Positions 4,128 to 12,860 of a stretch of 12,860 bases of DNA are shown in pieces. The notes beneath the pieces were generated by a model. It was not told where the DNA came from. It worked only from the letters and a program-made list of their open reading frames with translations, and did no database searches. The translations under genes and the position numbers were made by a program. This DNA is from a virus. Its lineage: Duplodnaviria > Heunggongvirae > Uroviricota > Caudoviricetes. Position 1 is the stretch's first letter; each line of letters begins with the position of its first letter. The stretch lies in IMG/VR virus record IMGVR_UViG_2737471837_000008, positions 1 to 12,860 of that record, one strand, 5' to 3'.

Positions 4128-4415
4128 TCACTGACTGCAATTTTTCGATCCAGGGTATTTCCTGAATGCCTTACCATTGGGCTGATGTAATCCCATCCCG
4201 GCATGTGCCCGGCTGATGGTTTCGCGCATCTCCCCGAAATTATCCTGCCTTGCTGGTGGGCGTGCTGCCTTGCGGATACATTCCGCGCGACGTTTTGCCG
4301 CCTGTTCCCGTGCCTTGTCATCATTCGCCAGCATGATGACCTCAGCCCACCGCGCCGCCGCTCTCCGGTACAGACCACGCGCTTCCAGTGCTTCCGCTTT
4401 GCTGTCGTGAATCAT
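4128..4415 (-). CDS. PerC-family transcriptional regulator-like protein (95 aa)
   Basis: AEALEARGLYRRAAARWAEVIM... matches the PerC/Pch family signature as I recall it. ATG at 4413-4415 overlaps the upstream stop (ATGA); AAGGAG upstream. Confidence 0.7.
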   Translation of the reverse strand: MIHDSKAEALEARGLYRRAAARWAEVIMLANDDKAREQAAKRRAECIRKAARPPARQDNFGEMRETISRAHAGMGLHQPNGKAFRKYPGSKNCSQ

Positions 4416-4990
4416 GCGCCTGTTTTCTCCTTTGCTGCCCGGCGCTGACGTTTGCGCTTCTCATTCAGCGCCACCAGCCGCGTTTCTGCGTCCTGTTGTT
4501 CCTGTGGTGTCACCTCGCCGCACGGCTGGCCTTTCAGGTCGTAACGTGCACCACCAGCCATTAAGGCGCGGTAATAGCGCGGAGACTGCGCATAAGATGC
4601 CAGCGTCGCACGTAATGCCCCTGGCCCGAATGCCAGCCCCCTGACGGCGAGATCCTGCATCAGGTCGTCGAATATCCCCACCTTAAGCGGCTTCGGTGCT
4701 TCCCGGCTGAATAATTCAGGCCACAACTCAGTGAGGCGGTTAACGCGCCTGCGGTTTTTGCGCTGGCGTTTGGTCATATGCCGCCACGGTGTCGCCCCTG
4801 TGGGCTTCTGCTGCGCTTTCTGGTTACCGGGCATCACTTTATGCGCCGATGTGGTTTTATCCTGCTCCTGTGCCGCCTGCGTCGTTTTCTGCGGCGTGCC
4901 GTAAATGCCTTTAGGTTTTCTGTTAATGGTCAGCGTTGTCATGCTTTGCCCCATCGTTTTTACTGATTGTTTCATGCCCGGCACTTTCAT
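4412..4990 (-). CDS. FinO/ProQ-domain RNA-binding protein (RNA chaperone family)
   Basis: WPELFSREAPKPLKVGIFDDL...LRATLASYAQSPRYYRALMAGGARYDLKGQPCGEVTPQEQ aligns with the ProQ N-terminal FinO domain (PLKIGIFQDL...LRSALRLYTSSWRYL...RVDLDGNPCGELDEQ). Start uncertain (ATGs at 4990, 4975, 4954, 4942); lysine-rich N-terminal tail. Confidence 0.8.
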   Translation of the reverse strand: MKVPGMKQSVKTMGQSMTTLTINRKPKGIYGTPQKTTQAAQEQDKTTSAHKVMPGNQKAQQKPTGATPWRHMTKRQRKNRRRVNRLTELWPELFSREAPKPLKVGIFDDLMQDLAVRGLAFGPGALRATLASYAQSPRYYRALMAGGARYDLKGQPCGEVTPQEQQDAETRLVALNEKRKRQRRAAKEKTGA

Positions 4991-5282
4991 CTACCGGATA
5001 CCACGCAAATGATCCAGGTTCATCAGAAAGAATGAATTTTGTGTTTGGCAAATACATGCATTCGTAAAAACCATCTTCCTGATGATACGGTGCCATTCCA
5101 TACTCACCAGTAAGAATCGGTAATATTTCAGAATAAATTTCTGAATCACCAGAATAAAACACATCACAAATCGCCCATGCTGCAATCGGACTATACCAGT
5201 CGTTGCCATTGTCATTCCTGAATTTCGCCCACCACCCCTGAACCGCTGGCGAAATATTTTTTGGTATGGCTTCAAGAAACAT
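4923..5282 (-). CDS. hypothetical protein, 119 aa, aromatic-rich
   Basis: ATG at 5280-5282 with AGGGGG 5 nt upstream; overlapping opposite-frame ORF 4991-5332 looks like junk. No recognised family. Confidence 0.5.
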   Translation of the reverse strand: MFLEAIPKNISPAVQGWWAKFRNDNGNDWYSPIAAWAICDVFYSGDSEIYSEILPILTGEYGMAPYHQEDGFYECMYLPNTKFILSDEPGSFAWYPVDESAGHETISKNDGAKHDNADH

Positions 5283-5357
5283 ACAACCCCCTTTGCAACT
5301 CTATTTCTATATTTTCGTGATAAAAATGCCAATTATTCACACTATTCCATTTTGATT

Positions 5358-5635
5358 GTGAACAGTCGTGAATAGTTAGTGAACAGTTTTTCAATAACTG
5401 TTCACCATGTTTTTTAGTTTAAAATCATATGGTTATTTTGTTTCAGTGAACAGTTGAACAGTTACCCCCTATAGAATTTAATTTGCAGTGAAAAATGATT
5501 CACCGTTACAAGTTACAATGCGTTTTAAAAGTTTTAGCCGAAACTGTTCACGCCGTTCACTTCGTCGATGAATCCAGTAATGACGCGGCTTTTAGAGGTG
5601 AACAGTAGTGTTCAGTAGTGTTCACAACTGTTCAC
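5358..5635. repeat. replication-origin-like iteron cluster (GTGAACAG / CTGTTCAC) around AT-rich spacers
   Basis: GTGAACAG at 5358-5365, 5379-5386, 5446-5453, 5598-5605; variants at 5368-5375 and 5454-5461; CTGTTCAC at 5398-5405, 5544-5551, 5628-5635; tandem TAGTGTTCA at 5606-5625. AT-rich 5406-5445 and 5461-5490. Starts at the primase/helicase stop codon. Confidence 0.7.
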
Positions 5636-7404
5636 TTTTCATGGATTTTTGGCACAGCGGGTAACCATTCATTGGCACTATCAGCCAACTCCATGTTGTA
5701 GCGCATTCCGACATTGGTCTTTGCCTTCTTGTACTCAGCCCCATATTCTTTCATCACTTTTGGAAAATCTTTGCCAAAATTCGTTAGATTTAATGGCTTA
5801 TCGAAACCATAAGCATCCATATATGCAAGATATGCATGGTAGAGATAAATGCGAGGGGCTCTTGGATATATATTCAGGTTTCCCATGAACATTCCTACAG
5901 CTTCACCAAGTTCGACAATATGGTTACAAAAAGCATATAGCGGATCAGTATGGCGTTTTACTTCCATTGCTTCTTCACCATCACGTTGTTCGAGCAGTAA
6001 TGTTCTTGCTTTTTCGGGATCTGAAAAATTTACCAACAGCCTACGGACTATTACCGGAATTTCTGCTGCGATTTTTTTTGGTAAACATGTGTCCTTGTTT
6101 TCTTCCGCTATCGGATTATTGAACTGAAAAATAACCCTACGGCGTGAAATACCTCCCGCTCTTTCTGTAAAAACCATCGGTTTATTATTTGTTATCAAAA
6201 CAACTGAGCGTAAGACGGTGGTGTATCTTTTTTCATATTTCGGATTAATTTGCAGAGGATCCCCACCTGTTATAGCTTTAATACCATTACCTTCGCCAAA
6301 ATATTTAGGTTGGTCCGGTAAAATAATCAGACTTTTACCAACCAGTTGCTCACGTCCACCAGCATCATCTAACGCTTTCATATCACTGCCTGCGGTGTTC
6401 TGCTCACCCGCCAACATTCTGGCAATTTGAGTAAACATACTTTTACCACTTCCACCTTCGCCAGTTGCTTCAATGAATAATTGCCAGTCGTAGCGATTAG
6501 CCAAAACCATAAACAGAGCAGCACATATCCGCTTCATCTTTGATGAATCGTATCCTGCTGCATGTGACAGCCAACGATGAAAATGGGGCGCATGGTCATG
6601 AATATTTTCACCAAGCGCAGGTGGCGTATAATAAATTCCATTATGCGAAGTGATCCAGTGCTCTGGTGAATGAGGTAAAAATCTACCACTTGTTATGTCA
6701 TAAACTCCATTTTCAAAAGGTATTATGGTGTCACGCTGTTCTCTCATTACGGGTACAGATATTTTTAAAGCATCAACCGCGTTACTAATTGCCCGCTTAC
6801 TGAAATTTGTCTTATTTTTTTCGTAAATTGATACCATTTTACGACTCAACTCCATATCAGATATTTTTTTCCACACTCCAGAACAGTATGCATAAGCAAA
6901 ATTGTTACCAGGGTGAACAGCTATTTCCTCAAAGCATTCAGCCAAAAGTGAAGCCCGCTCGTTATCCGCCATTCTGGAAAGAGATATTTTGTGTTTTTTC
7001 TCAGTCCTTACTGACAGAATATCCCCGCGCTCTGCCTGTTCGCGGATCCGTTGCAGGTAGTCGCGCCAGTTCTCCGGCTCCCGGTCGGTGATACCTTTGT
7101 ATAATTTCGCATCCTGTACGCCAGCCAGCGCCAGCTTTTCAGCGATAGCATTGATCTGGATTGGTTCGATCTCCCCAGCGAGATAGACACGCGCAAAGCG
7201 GCGTTCATCGTCGACAATGCGGATATTCGCCAGGTCTGCCAGTTGCTTCGGCCCCAGGTAAACAGGTGGCACGTTATCGCCGTGTTTTCGTCCTTCGCTT
7301 TCAATCCAGTGTTGAGCATGGGCATAAGCGTCCGTCCCGGCAAAAATGATTACCTCGGTGAATTTATCCTTCGGCTGATATTTTAAATTCGGTGCGTTTT
7401 TCAC
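5632..7404 (-). CDS. P4-family primase/helicase-type replication protein (D5-like SF3 helicase domain)
   Basis: 590 aa with Walker A GEGGSGKS (GX4GKS) and the overall pattern of P4-alpha/D5-type C-terminal helicases. GTG start at 7402-7404 overlaps the upstream stop (GTGA); first ATG is about 143 codons in. Confidence 0.85.
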   Translation of the reverse strand: MKNAPNLKYQPKDKFTEVIIFAGTDAYAHAQHWIESEGRKHGDNVPPVYLGPKQLADLANIRIVDDERRFARVYLAGEIEPIQINAIAEKLALAGVQDAKLYKGITDREPENWRDYLQRIREQAERGDILSVRTEKKHKISLSRMADNERASLLAECFEEIAVHPGNNFAYAYCSGVWKKISDMELSRKMVSIYEKNKTNFSKRAISNAVDALKISVPVMREQRDTIIPFENGVYDITSGRFLPHSPEHWITSHNGIYYTPPALGENIHDHAPHFHRWLSHAAGYDSSKMKRICAALFMVLANRYDWQLFIEATGEGGSGKSMFTQIARMLAGEQNTAGSDMKALDDAGGREQLVGKSLIILPDQPKYFGEGNGIKAITGGDPLQINPKYEKRYTTVLRSVVLITNNKPMVFTERAGGISRRRVIFQFNNPIAEENKDTCLPKKIAAEIPVIVRRLLVNFSDPEKARTLLLEQRDGEEAMEVKRHTDPLYAFCNHIVELGEAVGMFMGNLNIYPRAPRIYLYHAYLAYMDAYGFDKPLNLTNFGKDFPKVMKEYGAEYKKAKTNVGMRYNMELADSANEWLPAVPKIHEK

Positions 7405-7896: not shown

Positions 7897-8254
7897 GATT
7901 CACCCCCTGAATGACCTGATAACCGCAACTGGTCAGCAACTCGATAAATTCCGGCAGTGTTCCGAAACAGCAATCATCTCGCAGCCGTTCTCGGGATACT
8001 TCAACGCCGTTTTCGTAGTGACTCACCATGCGTCCGGTAAAATGCAGATCATCATCGTGATGGCTCGTTAACGGCTTAATCAGTCGCGCACGTTCTGCCA
8101 GCTCCAGCAATGCTTCAACGCTTCCGGCAATTGCACCATCCGGCAGGTGATAATTACTTGCCACGCGTCCATTCTCCACGTTAACCAGTAGCTGCCCGGT
8201 GAATTTCTCATCAAACTGAATGCTGTTAAGGTCAGAAATTGACAGGTTATGCAT
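7889..8254 (-). CDS. small protein, 121 aa, tandem duplication of the same ~50-aa module
   Basis: DEKFTGQLLVNVENGRVASNYHL...SVEALLELAERARLIKP and DLHFTGRMVSHYENGVEVSRERL...LPEFIELLTSCGYQV. ATG at 8252-8254 preceded by AGGAGGT; overlaps the upstream gene as ATGCATAA. Confidence 0.65.
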   Translation of the reverse strand: MHNLSISDLNSIQFDEKFTGQLLVNVENGRVASNYHLPDGAIAGSVEALLELAERARLIKPLTSHHDDDLHFTGRMVSHYENGVEVSRERLRDDCCFGTLPEFIELLTSCGYQVIQGVNHG

Positions 8255-8450
8255 GGTGCACCTCCTGGCGAATACGGGCGGCGAATACCATCACGCAACC
8301 AGCCGGGGATTGCTGGCGCGCTTCCTGTTCGCTGGTGGCCTCGATGTGAATCACGCGCGGTTGTGCCGTACTCAGGGCGATAAAACGCCAGATGTATTTA
8401 TTCAGGTTGTGCGAGTCCCGCCCTTGCGGGTGTGTGGTATGATTTAACAT
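8247..8450 (-). CDS. hypothetical protein, 67 aa (MLNHTTHPQGRDSHNLNKYIWRF...)
   Basis: Internal ATG at 8448-8450 with GAGG 6 nt upstream; this is the C-terminal in-frame part of the 403-aa ORF-track entry. First gene of the leftward replication operon. Confidence 0.5.
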   Translation of the reverse strand: MLNHTTHPQGRDSHNLNKYIWRFIALSTAQPRVIHIEATSEQEARQQSPAGCVMVFAARIRQEVHHA

Positions 8451-8539
8451 AGCTACCTCGATACTTTCGCTATCGTTGGTGGTTAGAAGCCCCGTTACTG
8501 CTCCAACAGTGCGGGGTTTCGTCATTTTATGACTGATAA

Positions 8540-8640
8540 AAATCAAGTGTCGGACACATGTTATTTTATCGGTGTGGGACACGTCAAGCATTGCATTAAA
8601 CTTTTTTCTCGCTATCATTGTCGGACACCAAACCAATCGG
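8540..8640. promoter_or_regulatory. divergent promoter/operator region with repeated TGTC-G-GACA palindromes
   Basis: TGTCGGACAC at 8548-8557 and 8619-8628, variant TGTGGGACAC at 8573-8582, inverted variant at 8696-8704. Candidate rightward promoter TTGCAT(8591-8596)-16 nt-TATCAT(8613-8618); candidate leftward promoter TTGACG(rc 8582-8587)-18 nt-TAACAT(rc 8558-8563). Confidence 0.45.
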
Positions 8641-8649
8641 AAATCAGAA

Positions 8650-8829
8650 ATGGCAACGAAATCAGTAAATGCAAAATCGAAAAGAATAGATGCACGTGTC
8701 CCACTCCATATCGTTGATGCCATGGATAAGGTCAAAGAAGACGGCGAAAGTACAGGGCAGTTTGTAACAGCCGCATTAGAAGGCGAGATCAAACGCCGCC
8801 AGCGTCGCAAGGCCAAAGAGCAGGAGTAA
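8650..8829 (+). CDS. ribbon-helix-helix (CopG/Arc-like) DNA-binding protein, 59 aa
   Basis: MATKSVNAKSKRIDARVPLHIVDAMDKVKEDGESTGQFVTAALEGEIKRRQ fits a strand-helixA-helixB RHH layout with a basic tail. Only convincing plus-strand gene; opposite-strand frame through it reads as Ser/Leu/Cys-rich junk. Confidence 0.6.
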   Translation: MATKSVNAKSKRIDARVPLHIVDAMDKVKEDGESTGQFVTAALEGEIKRRQRRKAKEQE

Positions 8830-8886
8830 CCATCACTAGCGCCGTGGAGTGATGAACTGTGGCGCACAGGGTTACAGGTATATACG

Positions 8887-9063
8887 ATGACTGACAAATC
8901 ATTAAAGAAATTATCCTCATCCAGGAAAAAACAACGCAAAAATGCGGTAAGCGAACAAGAACAGGAAAGATTCGCACCTTGTTCGTTTGCTCTTGAGAAA
9001 TTCCTTAAAGAGCACAGGAAAAAGCTCTCGTTGCAAACCTTGGAACGAACCAAATCTGACTGA
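8887..9063 (+). CDS. possible small basic protein, 58 aa (MTDKSLKKLSSSRKKQRKNAVSEQEQERF...)
   Basis: ATG at 8887-8889, stop TGA at 9061-9063, downstream of the RHH gene on the same strand. Weak SD; below the ORF-track cutoff. Confidence 0.3.
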   Translation: MTDKSLKKLSSSRKKQRKNAVSEQEQERFAPCSFALEKFLKEHRKKLSLQTLERTKSD

Positions 9064-9458
9064 TCACATTGCCCACCAGCCGCAAATGTGGCATTGTTGG
9101 TGATGCGTTCAAGTATGTAGCTTTTCCACTGGCGGCTCTCTGCGGTCGCCTTTGTTTTATCCAGAACGAAATCAGACATCAGATTGATCAGCACCTGGCG
9201 ACCTGACAAAATCGCATCAGTCGCGCCACCAGCAAAATTTTTTGCTTTCCGGACAGCGTGGCCAACGGCATTTTGCAGCAAAATATTCTGCATTTCTGGC
9301 GTGCTGTAGTAACGGTGATCAGTGCCTTCACATTGAACGAACTTGTCGCTAAAATTCACCCACATAGCAAACATCGCGGTGCTGTAGGTAATTCGTTCAC
9401 AAAGGCGCTCCGGCAACGGGGCGCTTTCTCTTTTTGTAACGGTCAGAGCGTTACACAT
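9064..9458 (-). CDS. hypothetical protein; convincing only over roughly the first 130 codons, 3' end undefined
   Basis: ATG at 9456-9458 overlaps the antirepressor stop by 8 nt. Protein-like composition to about 9064, then junk-like sequence antisense to the plus-strand genes, with no stop until 8247. Confidence 0.4.
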
Positions 9459-10299
9459 GGCTGTTTTCCTCCATGCGACGGGCTAACCAACGCTGCGAAA
9501 GACGAATTAATTCAGCCTTCCGCTGGTGGTAGTCCTGGCCTAACTCAATCAGCGTGATATTGCTCTGCTCAAGGTAAGAAAGGTGCTCAAGCTGCAACGT
9601 GCTCATGTGGTCGCGTGGTTCGCCTGTGATGCCGTTCGCCTGCGCCCACTGTTTTGCAGTCATGCCACCCAGCACGATACGCGCCAGCATATTGGCTTCC
9701 GTGGTGTAGTGGTGCTGGAGTGTGTTTTTACCCAGTTCAGCCCGGTACGCCTCCAGCGCGGCGCACATCGGCTTAAAGTAGCTGGCAACGGTGATACGGG
9801 CTTTCAGTTCCCTGCGTAACGCTGCGGAACGCACTGGCGCTACCTTGTGTAGCTCCTCCTCGCATTTGATGAAGTACTGACGAACGGCGCGGCCCTGTTC
9901 GGTGCGTTCGACCATCGCCAGTTCTTTCGCCATGTTCGTGGAGATCAAATACTCTTCACTGCGACGATCACCGCCGCGCTTTGTTGTCCAATCAGAATCA
10001 AACTGTTCAATATTTACACTTTGGTTCCCCCGTTTCGGGGAATCAAAGTACAAATTTTCTACAACTTCAAAATCCACGCCATTTTTAAATCCGTACTCAT
10101 CAATGCGTCCTTTAATCCAGGTTGTGAAATCACGCTTCACACCCAGCGCCTTATGCAACGCTCTGGCGCTAACAATATTGGTTTCACGCCCGCCAATAAC
10201 ACCGGAAATAACCGGGATAATATCGCCGAAATTTTGCAGATTCTGGTTTTCAGGCCGAACGAAGCCCTGCCCCTGTACGGGCGTTTTTGGAAATTTCAT
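9451..10299 (-). CDS. AntA/AntB-family phage antirepressor-like protein (282 aa)
   Basis: N-terminal IPVISGVIGGRETNIVSARALHKALGVKRDFTTWIKGRIDEYGFKNGVDFEV matches the AntA antirepressor domain pattern. ATG at 10297-10299 with AGGAG 6 nt upstream. Confidence 0.75.
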   Translation of the reverse strand: MKFPKTPVQGQGFVRPENQNLQNFGDIIPVISGVIGGRETNIVSARALHKALGVKRDFTTWIKGRIDEYGFKNGVDFEVVENLYFDSPKRGNQSVNIEQFDSDWTTKRGGDRRSEEYLISTNMAKELAMVERTEQGRAVRQYFIKCEEELHKVAPVRSAALRRELKARITVASYFKPMCAALEAYRAELGKNTLQHHYTTEANMLARIVLGGMTAKQWAQANGITGEPRDHMSTLQLEHLSYLEQSNITLIELGQDYHQRKAELIRLSQRWLARRMEENSHV

Positions 10300-10376: not shown

Positions 10377-10574
10377 TCAGGTAGCTGTTCCGCGTGATTC
10401 CGCAATACGCTGATTAATCCACTCGTCAATTTCACTCTCAACGAAAGCAATAGCTCGCGAGCCAATTTTAACTGATGCAGGAAATTTACCTTGCCCCATA
10501 AGGCGATAAATCCATGCCTTGCTATATCCAGTTCTACGCTGAACTTCCGTTAAACGAATAAGAGAGTTTGCCAT
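10377..10574 (-). CDS. alpA: AlpA-family phage transcriptional regulator (65 aa)
   Basis: MANSLIRLTEVQRRTGYSKAWIYRLMGQGKFPASVKIGSRAIAFVESEIDEWINQR matches the AlpA pattern including the EIDEW motif. ATG at 10572-10574 with AAGGTG upstream. Confidence 0.9.
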   Translation of the reverse strand: MANSLIRLTEVQRRTGYSKAWIYRLMGQGKFPASVKIGSRAIAFVESEIDEWINQRIAESRGTAT

Positions 10575-11645: not shown

Positions 11646-12860
11646 TCACCCGCATTTTCCGAACTCACCATGCACCACATTTCCGCCATGCTCGAGCGAA
11701 TCCATATAGTCGGCATACCACTGGAGCATCTCCCGGCGACCATCCAGATATTGCGCATGGTTGTATGTGCCACGAATTGAGTTTTTATCGACGTGTGCGA
11801 GCTGCGTCTCTATCCACGCGGTGTTATAGCCCTGCTCATGCAAAATGGTGCTCATGGTGTGCCGGAATCCATGACCAGTAACGCGCCCGGCATAGCCGAT
11901 ACGACGAATGAGCACATTCATCGCCATTTCACTCATTGGCTTACTGTGGTGAATACGACCGGGGAAAATAAACTGATACTGGCCTGTCATGTTTTTTAAC
12001 TGCTCCAGTATTTTTATCGCCTGTTCTGGTAATGGCACACAATGCGGACGGCGCATCTTCATTCGTTCTTTAGGCACTTCCCACAAACGATTATCAAAAT
12101 CGATCTCCTGCCATTCTGCCTGCCGTAATTCCCCGGGTCTGACACCTGTCAGAATTAATAGCCGCATTGCCAGTTTGACGATCTGGCTTCCGGTGTACGT
12201 ATTAAAAACGCGGAAAAATTCCGGCAGTTCGTCGGCCTTCAAATAGGCGTAATGCTCTTTTTTATGTGGAGCAAATGCGCTCACCAGGTCAGGGGCTGGA
12301 TTATATTCGGCGCGTCCGGTGATGATTGCGTACCGGAACACCTCGCCGCATCGCTGGCGAACCTTACGCAATTTTTCAGTCGCACCACGGTCATTAAGAC
12401 GGGAAAGAACCGCCAGCAATTCCATCGGCTTAATTTCTGCGATCGGCCTACCGCCAATGTACGGAAAAACATCTTTTTCAAACGTCTCGATCATTTCCTC
12501 GGCGTATGACGATGACCACCTGTCGATCCGCTTTTCGTACCATTCGCGAGCAATACCCTCAAAAGTATTGCCAAATTTGCTCGCCTGTTCTCGCTTTTGG
12601 GCTTTTCTGGCCTCACTTGGATTTATACCACCAGCAAGAAGCCTTTTAGCCTCATCCCTTGCCGCCCTGGCATCAGACAGAGACACATCAGGGTACACAC
12701 CCAACGACAACATTTTGGGCTTTCCTGCAAACCTGTAGCGCAGTCGCCACCCTTTCGAACCGTTCGGCTCAATGAGCAACGAAAGCCCGTTACCGTCATT
12801 GAGTGTATAAGCCTTTTCTTTCGGCTTCGCGCGCCTGATGGCAAGGTCTGAAAGCAGCAT
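11646..12860 (-). CDS. int: tyrosine site-specific integrase, P4-type
   Basis: N-terminus MLLSDLAIRRAKPKEKAYTLNDGNGLSLLIEP...VSLSDARAARDEAKRLL is typical of P4-like integrases; catalytic HGFRHT and RGTYNHAQY motifs present. ATG lies on the last three bases of the window, so the true start may be a few codons beyond it. Confidence 0.95.
   Translation of the reverse strand: MLLSDLAIRRAKPKEKAYTLNDGNGLSLLIEPNGSKGWRLRYRFAGKPKMLSLGVYPDVSLSDARAARDEAKRLLAGGINPSEARKAQKREQASKFGNTFEGIAREWYEKRIDRWSSSYAEEMIETFEKDVFPYIGGRPIAEIKPMELLAVLSRLNDRGATEKLRKVRQRCGEVFRYAIITGRAEYNPAPDLVSAFAPHKKEHYAYLKADELPEFFRVFNTYTGSQIVKLAMRLLILTGVRPGELRQAEWQEIDFDNRLWEVPKERMKMRRPHCVPLPEQAIKILEQLKNMTGQYQFIFPGRIHHSKPMSEMAMNVLIRRIGYAGRVTGHGFRHTMSTILHEQGYNTAWIETQLAHVDKNSIRGTYNHAQYLDGRREMLQWYADYMDSLEHGGNVVHGEFGKCG

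What the first reader, a model, noticed from the sequence alone, without database searches (positions are those of the whole stretch)
5358..5635. Iteron-type origin beginning at the helicase stop codon
At least ten copies of the 8-bp GTGAACAG unit in both orientations flank two AT-rich stretches, starting on the stop codon of the primase/helicase gene. This matches the iterons-plus-AT-rich origin layout found immediately 3' of the replication gene in other chromosomal islands. The 8-bp unit is a directly testable specificity determinant for the replication protein.
Basis: partly seen in the sequence, partly recalled or inferred. Interest (0 to 1): 0.45.

Follow-up and report, generated by a model that had tools for sequence, protein, structure and literature searches.

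The report
Satellite island replication origin, P4-type iterons
The repeat cluster is very probably the replication origin of an E. coli phage-inducible chromosomal island; it sits right after the island's initiator-helicase gene, is built from the same 8-bp binding site that satellite phage P4 uses, and belongs to an origin type that has already been described.

Summary
GTGAACAG occurs 8 times in the window against 0.35 expected, and 7 of those copies lie in 5358-5635. Four one-mismatch copies and one copy with a perfect core bring the total to 12. The outermost iteron contains the TGA stop of the 590-aa replication gene.

The window is an E. coli PICI with the gene order of EcCICFT073: int, alpA-like, Icd-like, DUF4222, pri-rep, ori, PerC. 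The EcCICFT073 pri-rep-ori module has been shown to work experimentally (PMC6092414).

The Rep protein is 55% identical to EcCICFT073 Pri-Rep. Its C-terminal domain matches the P4 alpha origin-binding domain (PDB 1KA8, E 2e-21), and the iteron equals the P4 "type 1" repeat.

The 12 iterons form two 6-iteron units (3+1+2) in mirror orientation. One unit is collinear with P4 ori1, and its 80%-AT spacer (5406-5445) holds the least stable duplex of the whole window.

Relatives keep the same two-unit plan but use other iterons (GTCTACC, GTATAC, TCTACC) that track the Rep C-terminal domain. In this island the two units are in swapped order.

This is a new member of a known kind, of modest interest.

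The parts
5632..7404 (-). Rep (pri-rep / P4 alpha-like) initiator-helicase gene, 590 aa. The stop codon TGA lies at 5634-5632.
   Evidence: ORF list. Pfam D5_N, DUF5906 and Pox_D5. PHROG 864 'DNA primase' E 3e-128. 45% identity to P4 alpha aa 327-769. 55% identity over the full length to EcCICFT073 Pri-Rep. PDB 7OLA helicase match, E 2e-13.
5659..5949 (-). Part of Rep encoding the C-terminal origin-binding (winged-helix) domain, aa 486-582.
   Evidence: phmmer hit to PDB 1KA8 (P4 alpha C-terminal fragment), E 2e-21. This domain is closer to P4 (45% identity, score 222) than to EcCICFT073 (36%, score 130), whereas the helicase core is closer to EcCICFT073 (64% against 45%).
7015..7404 (-). Part of Rep encoding the N-terminal ~130-aa domain, which has a TOPRIM-like fold.
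5598..5635 (-). Unit B, block of 3+1 iterons. On the gene strand it reads GTGAACAG-tt-GTGAACAC-ta-CTGAACAC-ta-CTGTTCAC, with starts 10 bp apart. The first iteron contains the Rep stop codon.
   Evidence: In the ETEC variants the middle copies are perfect CTGTTCAC on the + strand. The block is collinear with unit B of EcCICFT073, L006 and L008.
5561..5597 (.). Unit B spacer: 37 bp, 54% AT, not AT-rich.
   Evidence: Composition. The stretch aaagccgcgYcattactgg is shared with the EcCICFT073 ori spacer.
5544..5560 (-). Unit B iteron pair. On the gene strand it reads GTGAACGG-c-GTGAACAG, 9-bp spacing.
5462..5543 (.). Central 82-bp spacer, 68% AT. It contains a weak iteron-like palindrome, GTGAAAAATGATTCAC, at 5488-5503, close to the centre of the cluster's dyad arrangement. 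It also contains the conserved AAAACTTTT and GGGGGTAA motifs that follow unit B in relatives.
5446..5461 (-). Unit A iteron pair. On the gene strand it reads CTGTTCAA-CTGTTCAC, 8-bp spacing.
   Evidence: E. coli RM9088 carries a third copy here.
5406..5445 (.). AT-rich spacer of unit A (40 bp, 80% AT). This is the proposed DNA-unwinding element.
   Evidence: 5410-5439 is the least stable 30-bp duplex of the whole 12,860-bp window (nearest-neighbour dG -30.0 against a mean of -40.3, sd 3.6). It occupies the same position as the AT-rich spacer of P4 ori1 and of the EcCICFT073 ori.
5358..5405 (-). Unit A block of 1+3 iterons. On the gene strand it reads GTGAACAG, then 11 bp, then CTGTTCAC-taa-CTATTCAC-ga-CTGTTCAC, with starts 11 and 10 bp apart.
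   Evidence: It is collinear with P4 ori1 (L002 9310-9360) and with unit A of EcCICFT073, L006 and L008.

Best explanation
The region 5358-5635 is the Rep-dependent vegetative replication origin of an EcCICFT073-type phage-inducible chromosomal island (PICI) of E. coli.

Proposed mechanism:
- After induction and excision, the 590-aa Rep protein binds the 8-bp iterons (core TGTTCAC, identical to the phage P4 type 1 repeat) through its C-terminal winged-helix domain.
- The 12 sites form two 6-iteron units (3+1+2) in mirror orientation. The triplets are spaced one helical turn apart, which would place the bound proteins on one face of the DNA.
- This concentrates Rep on both sides of the 40-bp, 80%-AT spacer at 5406-5445. 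The SF3 helicase domains then assemble into rings and open the duplex there. Priming and elongation by host enzymes follow, possibly helped by the N-terminal TOPRIM-like domain.
- Unit A (5358-5461) corresponds to P4 ori1. Unit B (5544-5635, with a GC-richer spacer) probably acts as the adjacent cis-enhancing set, playing the role of P4 crr.

What is shown here: the repeats and their statistics; the homology of Rep and of its DNA-binding domain; the collinearity with the EcCICFT073 ori and P4 ori1; the covariation of iteron and domain; and the duplex-stability minimum.

What is inferred: binding, melting at 5406-5445, the division of labour between units A and B, and who primes.
For: Repeat statistics.

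Position: intergenic, directly 3' of Rep.

Rep: SF3/D5 helicase with a P4 alpha origin-binding domain (1KA8, E 2e-21).

P4 record: NC_001609 annotates GGTGAACA/TGTTCACC as the 'ori type 1 repeat' in the rep_origin and in the crr directly 3' of alpha. P4 ori1 has the same RRR-F-[AT]-RR plan and similar spacings as unit A.

EcCICFT073: same gene order, Rep 55% identical, and an ori with the same two units and shared spacer sequence. Its pri-rep-ori supports plasmid maintenance, and deleting rep or ori impairs it (PMC6092414).

Relatives: the eight PICI-type relatives read in full after the genome scan (L006-L009, L012, L025, L031, L084), plus EcCICFT073 and the induced satellite vB_KppS-Ant, all have the two-unit plan right after the gene. 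Their iterons are lineage-specific and track the C-terminal domain.

Close E. coli variants (95-98% identity): the TGTTCA cores are kept, end bases vary, and one variant gains a copy.

Duplex stability: the least stable duplex of the window lies in the unit A spacer.

Uniqueness: there is no second iteron cluster in the 12.9-kb island.
Against: There is no experiment on this island. Only six of 5,426 complete E. coli genomes carry this exact ori.

The two units are in the opposite order (B then A) from every relative examined. This is a rearrangement whose effect on firing is unknown.

In P4 the iteron set that sits 3' of alpha is crr, a cis-acting helper, not the start site. Position alone therefore does not prove that initiation happens here.

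The N-terminal domain lacks the TOPRIM catalytic residues, so the priming step is unexplained.
Confidence: 0.8

Rival explanations
1. The cluster is only a crr-like cis-acting enhancer or Rep-titration site, as in P4. Under this reading the actual initiation site lies elsewhere in the island.
For: It sits exactly where P4 keeps crr, directly 3' of the alpha gene. Unit B has no AT-rich spacer.
Against: No second iteron cluster exists anywhere in the 12.9-kb island. Unit A has the arrangement of P4 ori1, not of crr, and contains the least stable duplex of the window. In EcCICFT073 the homologous region alone, with rep, makes a replicon (PMC6092414).
Confidence: 0.07
2. It is a decayed or rearranged origin that no longer fires. 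Under this reading the island is a defective remnant and the permuted order of the units reflects a disabling rearrangement.
For: The B-A order differs from all relatives examined. This ori type is rare: 6 of 5,426 genomes.
Against: The same permuted layout is kept in four sequence variants from unrelated strains. The iteron cores are intact while flanking bases and spacers vary. Rep is a full-length open frame. All 12 iterons and the AT-rich spacer are preserved.
Confidence: 0.08
3. The repeats are mainly operator sites through which Rep, or another island protein, controls transcription into the downstream genes (hypothetical protein, ProQ/FinO, PerC). Under this reading they are not an origin.
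For: The cluster fills most of the 349-bp gap between rep and the next gene on the same strand. No terminator for rep was found on the gene strand.
Against: No sigma-70-like promoter was found in 5100-5800. The sites covary with the Rep DNA-binding domain, and the layout equals the P4 ori1 and EcCICFT073 ori layouts. A regulatory side effect of Rep binding is not excluded.
Confidence: 0.04
4. It is a chance or low-complexity repeat, or a packaging (cos/pac) site.
For: None beyond its being a repeat-rich intergenic region.
Against: 0 of 200 shuffles reach the observed count. No lambda-type cosN is present. No Rfam family matches. The architecture is conserved across genera.
Confidence: 0.01

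Closest known systems
Replication origin of Gram-negative PICIs, prototype EcCICFT073 (Fillol-Salom et al. 2018, ISME J, PMC6092414)
   Same: Same island gene order: int, alpA-like, Icd-like, DUF4222, pri-rep, ori, PerC. Rep is 55% identical over the full length. The ori lies directly 3' of rep. It has two 6-iteron units, one with an AT-rich spacer and one with a GC-richer spacer that shares the stretch aaagccgcgYcattactgg.
   Different: The iteron is GTGAACAG here against CTGTCTACC in EcCICFT073. The Rep C-terminal domain is only 36% identical. The order of the two units is swapped, so here the first iteron overlaps the rep stop codon, whereas in EcCICFT073 unit A starts about 15 bp after the stop.
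Satellite phage P4 ori1 and crr (type 1 iterons TGTTCACC bound by the alpha protein; record NC_001609)
   Same: The iteron core is identical. The origin-binding domain is homologous (1KA8, E 2e-21). Unit A has the RRR-F-[AT]-RR plan of ori1 with similar spacings (10, 11, 19, 48 and 8 bp here against 10, 11, 22, 43 and 10 bp in P4). The position 3' of the initiator gene is that of crr.
   Different: P4 keeps ori1 and crr about 4.5 kb apart, and its crr is two direct 120-bp repeats with a different iteron arrangement (FF-spacer-RRR-F). Here two ori1-like units lie 82 bp apart in mirror orientation. Rep is 590 aa and lacks the P4 primase region (no alignment before aa 142). No psu, sid or delta genes were detected.
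[quoted passage not shown]
   Same: Same general layout and same logic: a self-loading helicase-initiator recognises short repeats next to its own gene (PMC6092414). The helicase core matches PDB 7OLA at E 2e-13. That 7OLA is the SaPI5 Rep helicase is my own recollection, not something a tool returned.
   Different: The iterons and the DNA-binding domain are unrelated, and those islands have divergent rather than unidirectional transcription. The likeness is one of design, with distant helicase homology only.
Escherichia phage vB_KppS-Ant (LR881103), an induced 16.5-kb capsid-encoding satellite
   Same: It has TGTTCACC iterons in the two-unit plan immediately after its primase-family gene. The C-terminal 142 aa are 49% identical.
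   Different: Its units are in the canonical A-then-B order and start about 30 bp after the stop. Its morphogenesis module is different (portal, capsid, connector).

Membership tests
Gram-negative PICI replication origin (EcCICFT073 type) | Located immediately 3' of the pri-rep gene, in an intergenic region | tested here: met
   The iterons span 5358-5635. The rep stop is at 5632-5634 and the next gene starts at 5282.
Gram-negative PICI replication origin (EcCICFT073 type) | [quoted passage not shown] | tested here: met
   Twelve iterons flank 5406-5445 (80% AT) and 5462-5543 (68% AT).
Gram-negative PICI replication origin (EcCICFT073 type) | Host element has PICI organisation: int, alpA-type regulator and pri-rep, all transcribed in one direction, about 10-15 kb | tested here: met
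   int 11646-12860, HTH/AlpA-like 10377-10574 and rep 5632-7404 are all on the - strand. The order matches EcCICFT073.
Gram-negative PICI replication origin (EcCICFT073 type) | Initiator homologous to an experimentally validated PICI Pri-Rep | tested here: met
   55% identity over 586 aa to the CFT073 protein at L088 27242-28996.
Gram-negative PICI replication origin (EcCICFT073 type) | Fragment supports Rep-dependent replication | not testable with these tools
   This has been shown only for EcCICFT073 (PMC6092414).
Phage P4 type-1-iteron origin (ori1/crr) | Iteron TGTTCACC / GGTGAACA | tested here: met
   The 7-bp core TGTTCAC is identical. The ninth base is not conserved here.
Phage P4 type-1-iteron origin (ori1/crr) | Initiator carries the alpha-type C-terminal origin-binding domain | tested here: met
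   1KA8 match over aa 486-582, E 2e-21.
Phage P4 type-1-iteron origin (ori1/crr) | Bipartite origin with ori1 and crr separated by kilobases, crr being two direct 120-bp repeats | tested here: not met
   There is a single cluster of two mirror-oriented units 82 bp apart, and no other cluster in the island.
Phage P4 type-1-iteron origin (ori1/crr) | Element is P4-like (psu, sid, delta, epsilon, full-length 777-aa alpha with primase domain) | tested here: not met
   No Psu, Sid or Ogr/Delta hit appeared in the Pfam or PHROG scans of the island ORFs. Rep is 590 aa and has no similarity to alpha aa 1-326.
Plasmid iteron origins (RepA/pi/TrfA type) | Tandem direct 17-22-bp iterons with DnaA boxes, and an initiator that recruits the host DnaB | tested here: not met
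   The iterons are 8 bp and occur in both orientations. There is no DnaA-box cluster. The initiator is itself an SF3 helicase. The ori DNA has no match in 72,556 plasmids.

The most novel reading that the evidence does not exclude
This PICI carries the P4 iteron and a P4-type origin-binding domain on an otherwise EcCICFT073-type helicase. Two different satellite families in E. coli may therefore share one origin specificity. If so, P4 alpha could fire (or titrate) this island's origin and the island's Rep could act on P4 ori/crr. That would give cross-replication or incompatibility between unrelated satellites. Together with the lineage-specific iterons seen in relatives, it would also mean that the C-terminal domain and its iteron set are exchanged as one cassette. 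The permuted B-A order would show that the two origin units work independently of their relative order.
Probability: 0.25. Interest if true: 0.5.

Novelty: new member of a known kind. Interest (0 to 1): 0.27.

Why it matters
It assigns a concrete origin, a probable unwinding site and a 12-site binding map to an unannotated intergenic region of an E. coli satellite island.

It ties the PICI origin class directly to the biochemically studied P4 alpha/iteron system, for which a domain structure exists.

The family comparison also gives ready material for working out a DNA-recognition code for these initiators: the same scaffold is used with at least three iteron types, and one pair of nearly identical domains goes with different iterons.

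None of this changes current understanding of how such origins work.

Tried and rejected
- DNA searches with the ori region found nothing in the phage collection or the plasmid collection. Only six E. coli chromosomes carry it.
- Rfam gave only sub-threshold noise.
- No lambda cosN, no IHF consensus and no DnaA-box cluster were found. A cos site, a host-initiator origin and an RNA gene were therefore dropped.
- The only terminator-like hit (5379-5405, + strand) is an iteron inverted pair on the antisense strand, and no promoter-like site was found.
- A single-sequence AF2 model of the Rep N-terminus was too poor to use (pLDDT 53). It was redone with an alignment.
- The classical P4 papers (Ziegelin 1993, PMID 8253092 / PMC413647) are not in the library. 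P4 biochemistry is therefore cited from the GenBank feature table, from a reference list and from my own knowledge.
- A text search for TGTTCACC returned only unrelated primer sequences.
- The supplements of PMC6092414 hold no iteron sequences. I could therefore not tell whether this iteron type is among those drawn in its Fig. 2a.
- Two look-ups of CFT073 hit the wrong neighbourhood before the island was found.
- I first read the right half as 'P4 crr-like in arrangement'. On checking, the P4 crr units are FF-spacer-RRR-F, so both window units are ori1-like in arrangement and only crr-like in position.

Full report
**1. The observation**

The 8-mer GTGAACAG occurs eight times in the 12,860-bp window on both strands, against 0.35 expected. 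None of 200 dinucleotide-preserving shuffles reached eight. Seven of the eight copies lie between 5358 and 5635.

With one mismatch allowed there are 11 copies in that 278-bp stretch, and 16 more scattered over the remaining 12.6 kb. A twelfth copy, GTGTTCAG at 5608, has the perfect 6-bp core. Ten of the 18 TGTTCA cores in the window lie in the stretch.

The ORF 5632..7404 on the minus strand ends with TGA at 5634-5632, inside the outermost iteron 5628-5635. The coordinates, the 'both orientations' claim and the overlap with the stop codon are therefore correct. 'At least ten copies' holds only if one mismatch is allowed.

Of the spacers, 5406-5445 is 80% AT, 5462-5543 is 68% AT and 5561-5597 is 54% AT. 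The window average is 53%.

**2. The element**

The window is 100% identical to a chromosomal segment of E. coli 08-00022. Close variants (95-98% identity) exist in three other strains, and in all only six of 5,426 complete genomes carry this sequence.

All genes run on the minus strand:
- a tyrosine integrase with a P4-type arm-binding domain (11646-12860);
- an AlpA-like HTH/excisionase-type regulator (10377-10574);
- an AntA antirepressor;
- an Icd-like protein;
- a DUF4222 protein;
- the 590-aa 'DNA primase family protein';
- the repeat region;
- a hypothetical protein, a ProQ/FinO-domain protein and PerC;
- a DUF2213 protein and further ORFs with no family match.

This is the gene order of EcCICFT073, the prototype Gram-negative phage-inducible chromosomal island. 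I located that island in CFT073 at L088 22931-33655.

**3. The initiator**

The 590-aa protein has D5_N, DUF5906 and Pox_D5 domains, which make up an SF3 helicase module. It is 45% identical to residues 327-769 of the P4 alpha protein and 55% identical over its whole length to EcCICFT073 Pri-Rep.

Residues 486-582 match the only solved fragment of P4 alpha, PDB 1KA8, at E 2e-21. The helicase core matches PDB 7OLA at E 2e-13. From my own knowledge, not from a tool, 1KA8 is the winged-helix origin-binding domain of P4 alpha and 7OLA is the SaPI5 Rep helicase.

Compared domain by domain, the helicase core is closer to EcCICFT073 (64% against 45% to P4). The C-terminal domain is closer to P4 (45%, score 222, against 36%, score 130).

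**4. Anatomy of the repeat region**

On the gene strand, starting at the stop codon, write R for GTGAACAG-like copies and F for CTGTTCAC-like copies. The region then reads:
- RRR-F, with starts 10 bp apart (5635-5598);
- a 37-bp spacer;
- RR (5560-5544);
- 82 bp;
- FF (5461-5446);
- a 40-bp AT-rich spacer;
- R (5405-5398);
- 11 bp;
- FFF, with starts 11 and 10 bp apart (5386-5358).

These are two 6-iteron units (3+1+2) in mirror orientation. A weak iteron-like palindrome, GTGAAAAATGATTCAC at 5488-5503, lies close to the centre of this dyad arrangement.

The least stable 30-bp duplex of the entire window is 5410-5439, inside the AT-rich spacer of the promoter-distal unit (unit A). Its nearest-neighbour dG is -30.0, against a mean of -40.3 with sd 3.6.

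**5. Comparison with P4**

The P4 GenBank record annotates GGTGAACA/TGTTCACC as the 'ori type 1 repeat'. It marks six copies in the rep_origin (9310-9413) and ten in crr, the 'cis required region for replication', which lies directly 3' of the alpha gene (sequences). The iteron of the window is therefore the P4 iteron.

P4 ori1 reads RRR-F-[35-bp AT-rich]-RR with start-to-start spacings of 10, 11, 22, 43 and 10 bp. Unit A of the window reads the same, with spacings of 10, 11, 19, 48 and 8 bp, and the two align collinearly.

The crr units use the same iterons in another arrangement (FF-spacer-RRR-F). The window's cluster is thus crr-like in position but ori1-like in construction. That the P4 alpha protein recognises the origin is established biochemistry (Ziegelin et al. 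1993, cited in PMC8628076). That it binds the type 1 iterons through its C-terminal domain is my own knowledge; the paper itself was not available.

**6. Comparison with the validated PICI origin and other relatives**

Fillol-Salom et al. (PMC6092414) state three things:
- the region immediately 3' of the replication gene in Gram-negative PICIs has iteron sets flanking an AT-rich region;
- a plasmid carrying EcCICFT073 pri-rep-ori is maintained at the restrictive temperature;
- deleting rep, or deleting the ori, impairs that maintenance.

The EcCICFT073 intergenic region (L088 28997-29284) has CTGTCTACC iterons arranged as [FF-AT-R-FFF]-spacer-[RR(R)-F-spacer-RR]. Both units align with those of the window. 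The alignment includes a non-iteron stretch of the unit B spacer (aaagccgcgYcattactgg) and the AAAACTTTT motif that follows unit B.

A scan of one genome per species returned 80 loci encoding relatives. Most have an iteron cluster directly after the stop codon. The eight PICI-type relatives I read in full (L006-L009, L012, L025, L031, L084), and the induced satellite vB_KppS-Ant, all show the same two-unit plan. Their iterons differ by lineage:
- TGTTCAC: Erwinia, Tatumella, Pectobacterium, Raoultella and vB_KppS-Ant;
- GTGTTCAT: Escherichia sp. ESNIH1;
- GTATAC: Pseudocitrobacter;
- TCTACC: Rosenbergiella;
- GTCTAC: Kluyvera.

The iteron type follows the sequence of the last ~40 residues of Rep. 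For example, EcCICFT073 and Rosenbergiella share VKGxTQTN and a TCTACC-type iteron. The number, orientation and spacing of sites are conserved while the site sequence changes along with the adjacent protein's DNA-binding domain. That is the strongest computational evidence that Rep binds these sites and that the arrangement is functional.

**7. What is particular to this island**

In every relative the order after the stop codon is unit A (AT-rich spacer) and then unit B. In the window and its three close variants the order is B then A. As a result unit B begins on the stop codon, and the sequence that normally follows unit B (AAAACTTTT ... GGGGGTAA) lies between the units.

Among the close variants:
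- the TGTTCA cores are invariant;
- the end bases of the iterons vary (GTGTTCAG against CTGTTCAC);
- RM9088 has one extra 8-bp iteron in the pair at 5446-5461.

This pattern argues for a maintained, working site rather than a decaying one.

**8. Mechanism and rivals**

Best explanation, at 0.8 confidence: Rep binds the 12 iterons through its winged-helix domain. It oligomerises on both sides of the AT-rich spacer 5406-5445, and its SF3 helicase rings open the duplex there. Unit B acts as an adjacent enhancing set, analogous to crr.

The rivals are:
- a crr-like enhancer with the real origin elsewhere (0.07). No second cluster exists, and unit A has all the ori1 features;
- a dead, rearranged origin (0.08). 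The conservation pattern argues against this;
- a purely regulatory operator array (0.04);
- chance, or a packaging site (0.01).

No DnaA-box cluster, IHF consensus, cosN, promoter-like site or Rfam family was found in the region.

**9. Novelty and verdict**

The kind is known. Origins made of iterons flanking an AT-rich stretch 3' of the initiator gene are described for SaPIs, for Gram-negative PICIs (PMC6092414) and, with this very iteron, for P4.

This locus is a new member. Three modest points go beyond the literature I could read:
- the iteron is identical to P4's, on an EcCICFT073-type helicase scaffold, which suggests that the C-terminal domain and its iterons are exchanged together;
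- the order of the two units is permuted;
- iteron and domain covary clearly across genera.

Interest is modest (0.27).

Noticed in passing
L007 4353-4650 and L009 4353-4650 (downstream of the Rep homologues): The Rep C-terminal 100 residues of Pseudocitrobacter faecalis (L007) and Escherichia sp. ESNIH1 (L009) differ at only about five positions (for example RKERKNRGM against RKERKTRGV). Their iterons nevertheless differ (GGTATACAC against TATGAACAC) within the same two-unit layout. This is a candidate natural switch of DNA-binding specificity.
   Followed up: partly
[not shown]
   Followed up: partly
L003 (E. coli RM9088), aligned to window 5446-5461: This variant has one extra 8-bp iteron (TGAACAGT) in the iteron pair, giving three copies instead of two. 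It is a case of copy-number variation by one repeat unit.
   Followed up: yes
window 5462-5469 and 5527-5535; L088 29252-29275; L006 and L008 after unit B: A conserved AAAACTTTT ... GGGGGTAA motif follows unit B in all relatives, where GGGGG serves as the ribosome-binding site of the next gene. In the window it is stranded between units B and A, and a second GGGGG precedes the real next gene at 5282. This is a footprint of the rearrangement that swapped the units.
   Followed up: partly
window 4412-4990 (-), 4128-4415 (-), 9451-10299 (-), 8247-9458 (-): The island cargo includes a ProQ/FinO-domain protein (where EcCICFT073 has an SSB), a PerC-family activator, an AntA antirepressor and an Icd-like cell-division inhibitor. 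RefSeq calls the last of these as a shorter gene inside the 403-aa ORF.
   Followed up: no
window 6913-6920 (+), inside the rep gene: There is one isolated exact GTGAACAG copy within the rep coding sequence. From my own recollection, P4 has a secondary origin inside alpha, so I noted it, but a single copy is compatible with chance.
   Followed up: no
L001 16933-18153 (E. coli 08-00022, beyond the window's int end): A second, divergently oriented tyrosine integrase lies immediately next to the island's integrase. This suggests that two integrative elements sit in tandem at the same site.
   Followed up: no
L013-L015, L019, L035, L042, L049, L053 (Pectobacterium/Dickeya) and several Serratia loci: Many full-length (~790-aa) alpha homologues with a P4-like C-terminal domain have no iteron cluster within 400 bp after the stop codon. 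A crr-type set 3' of the gene is therefore not universal in the family.
   Followed up: no
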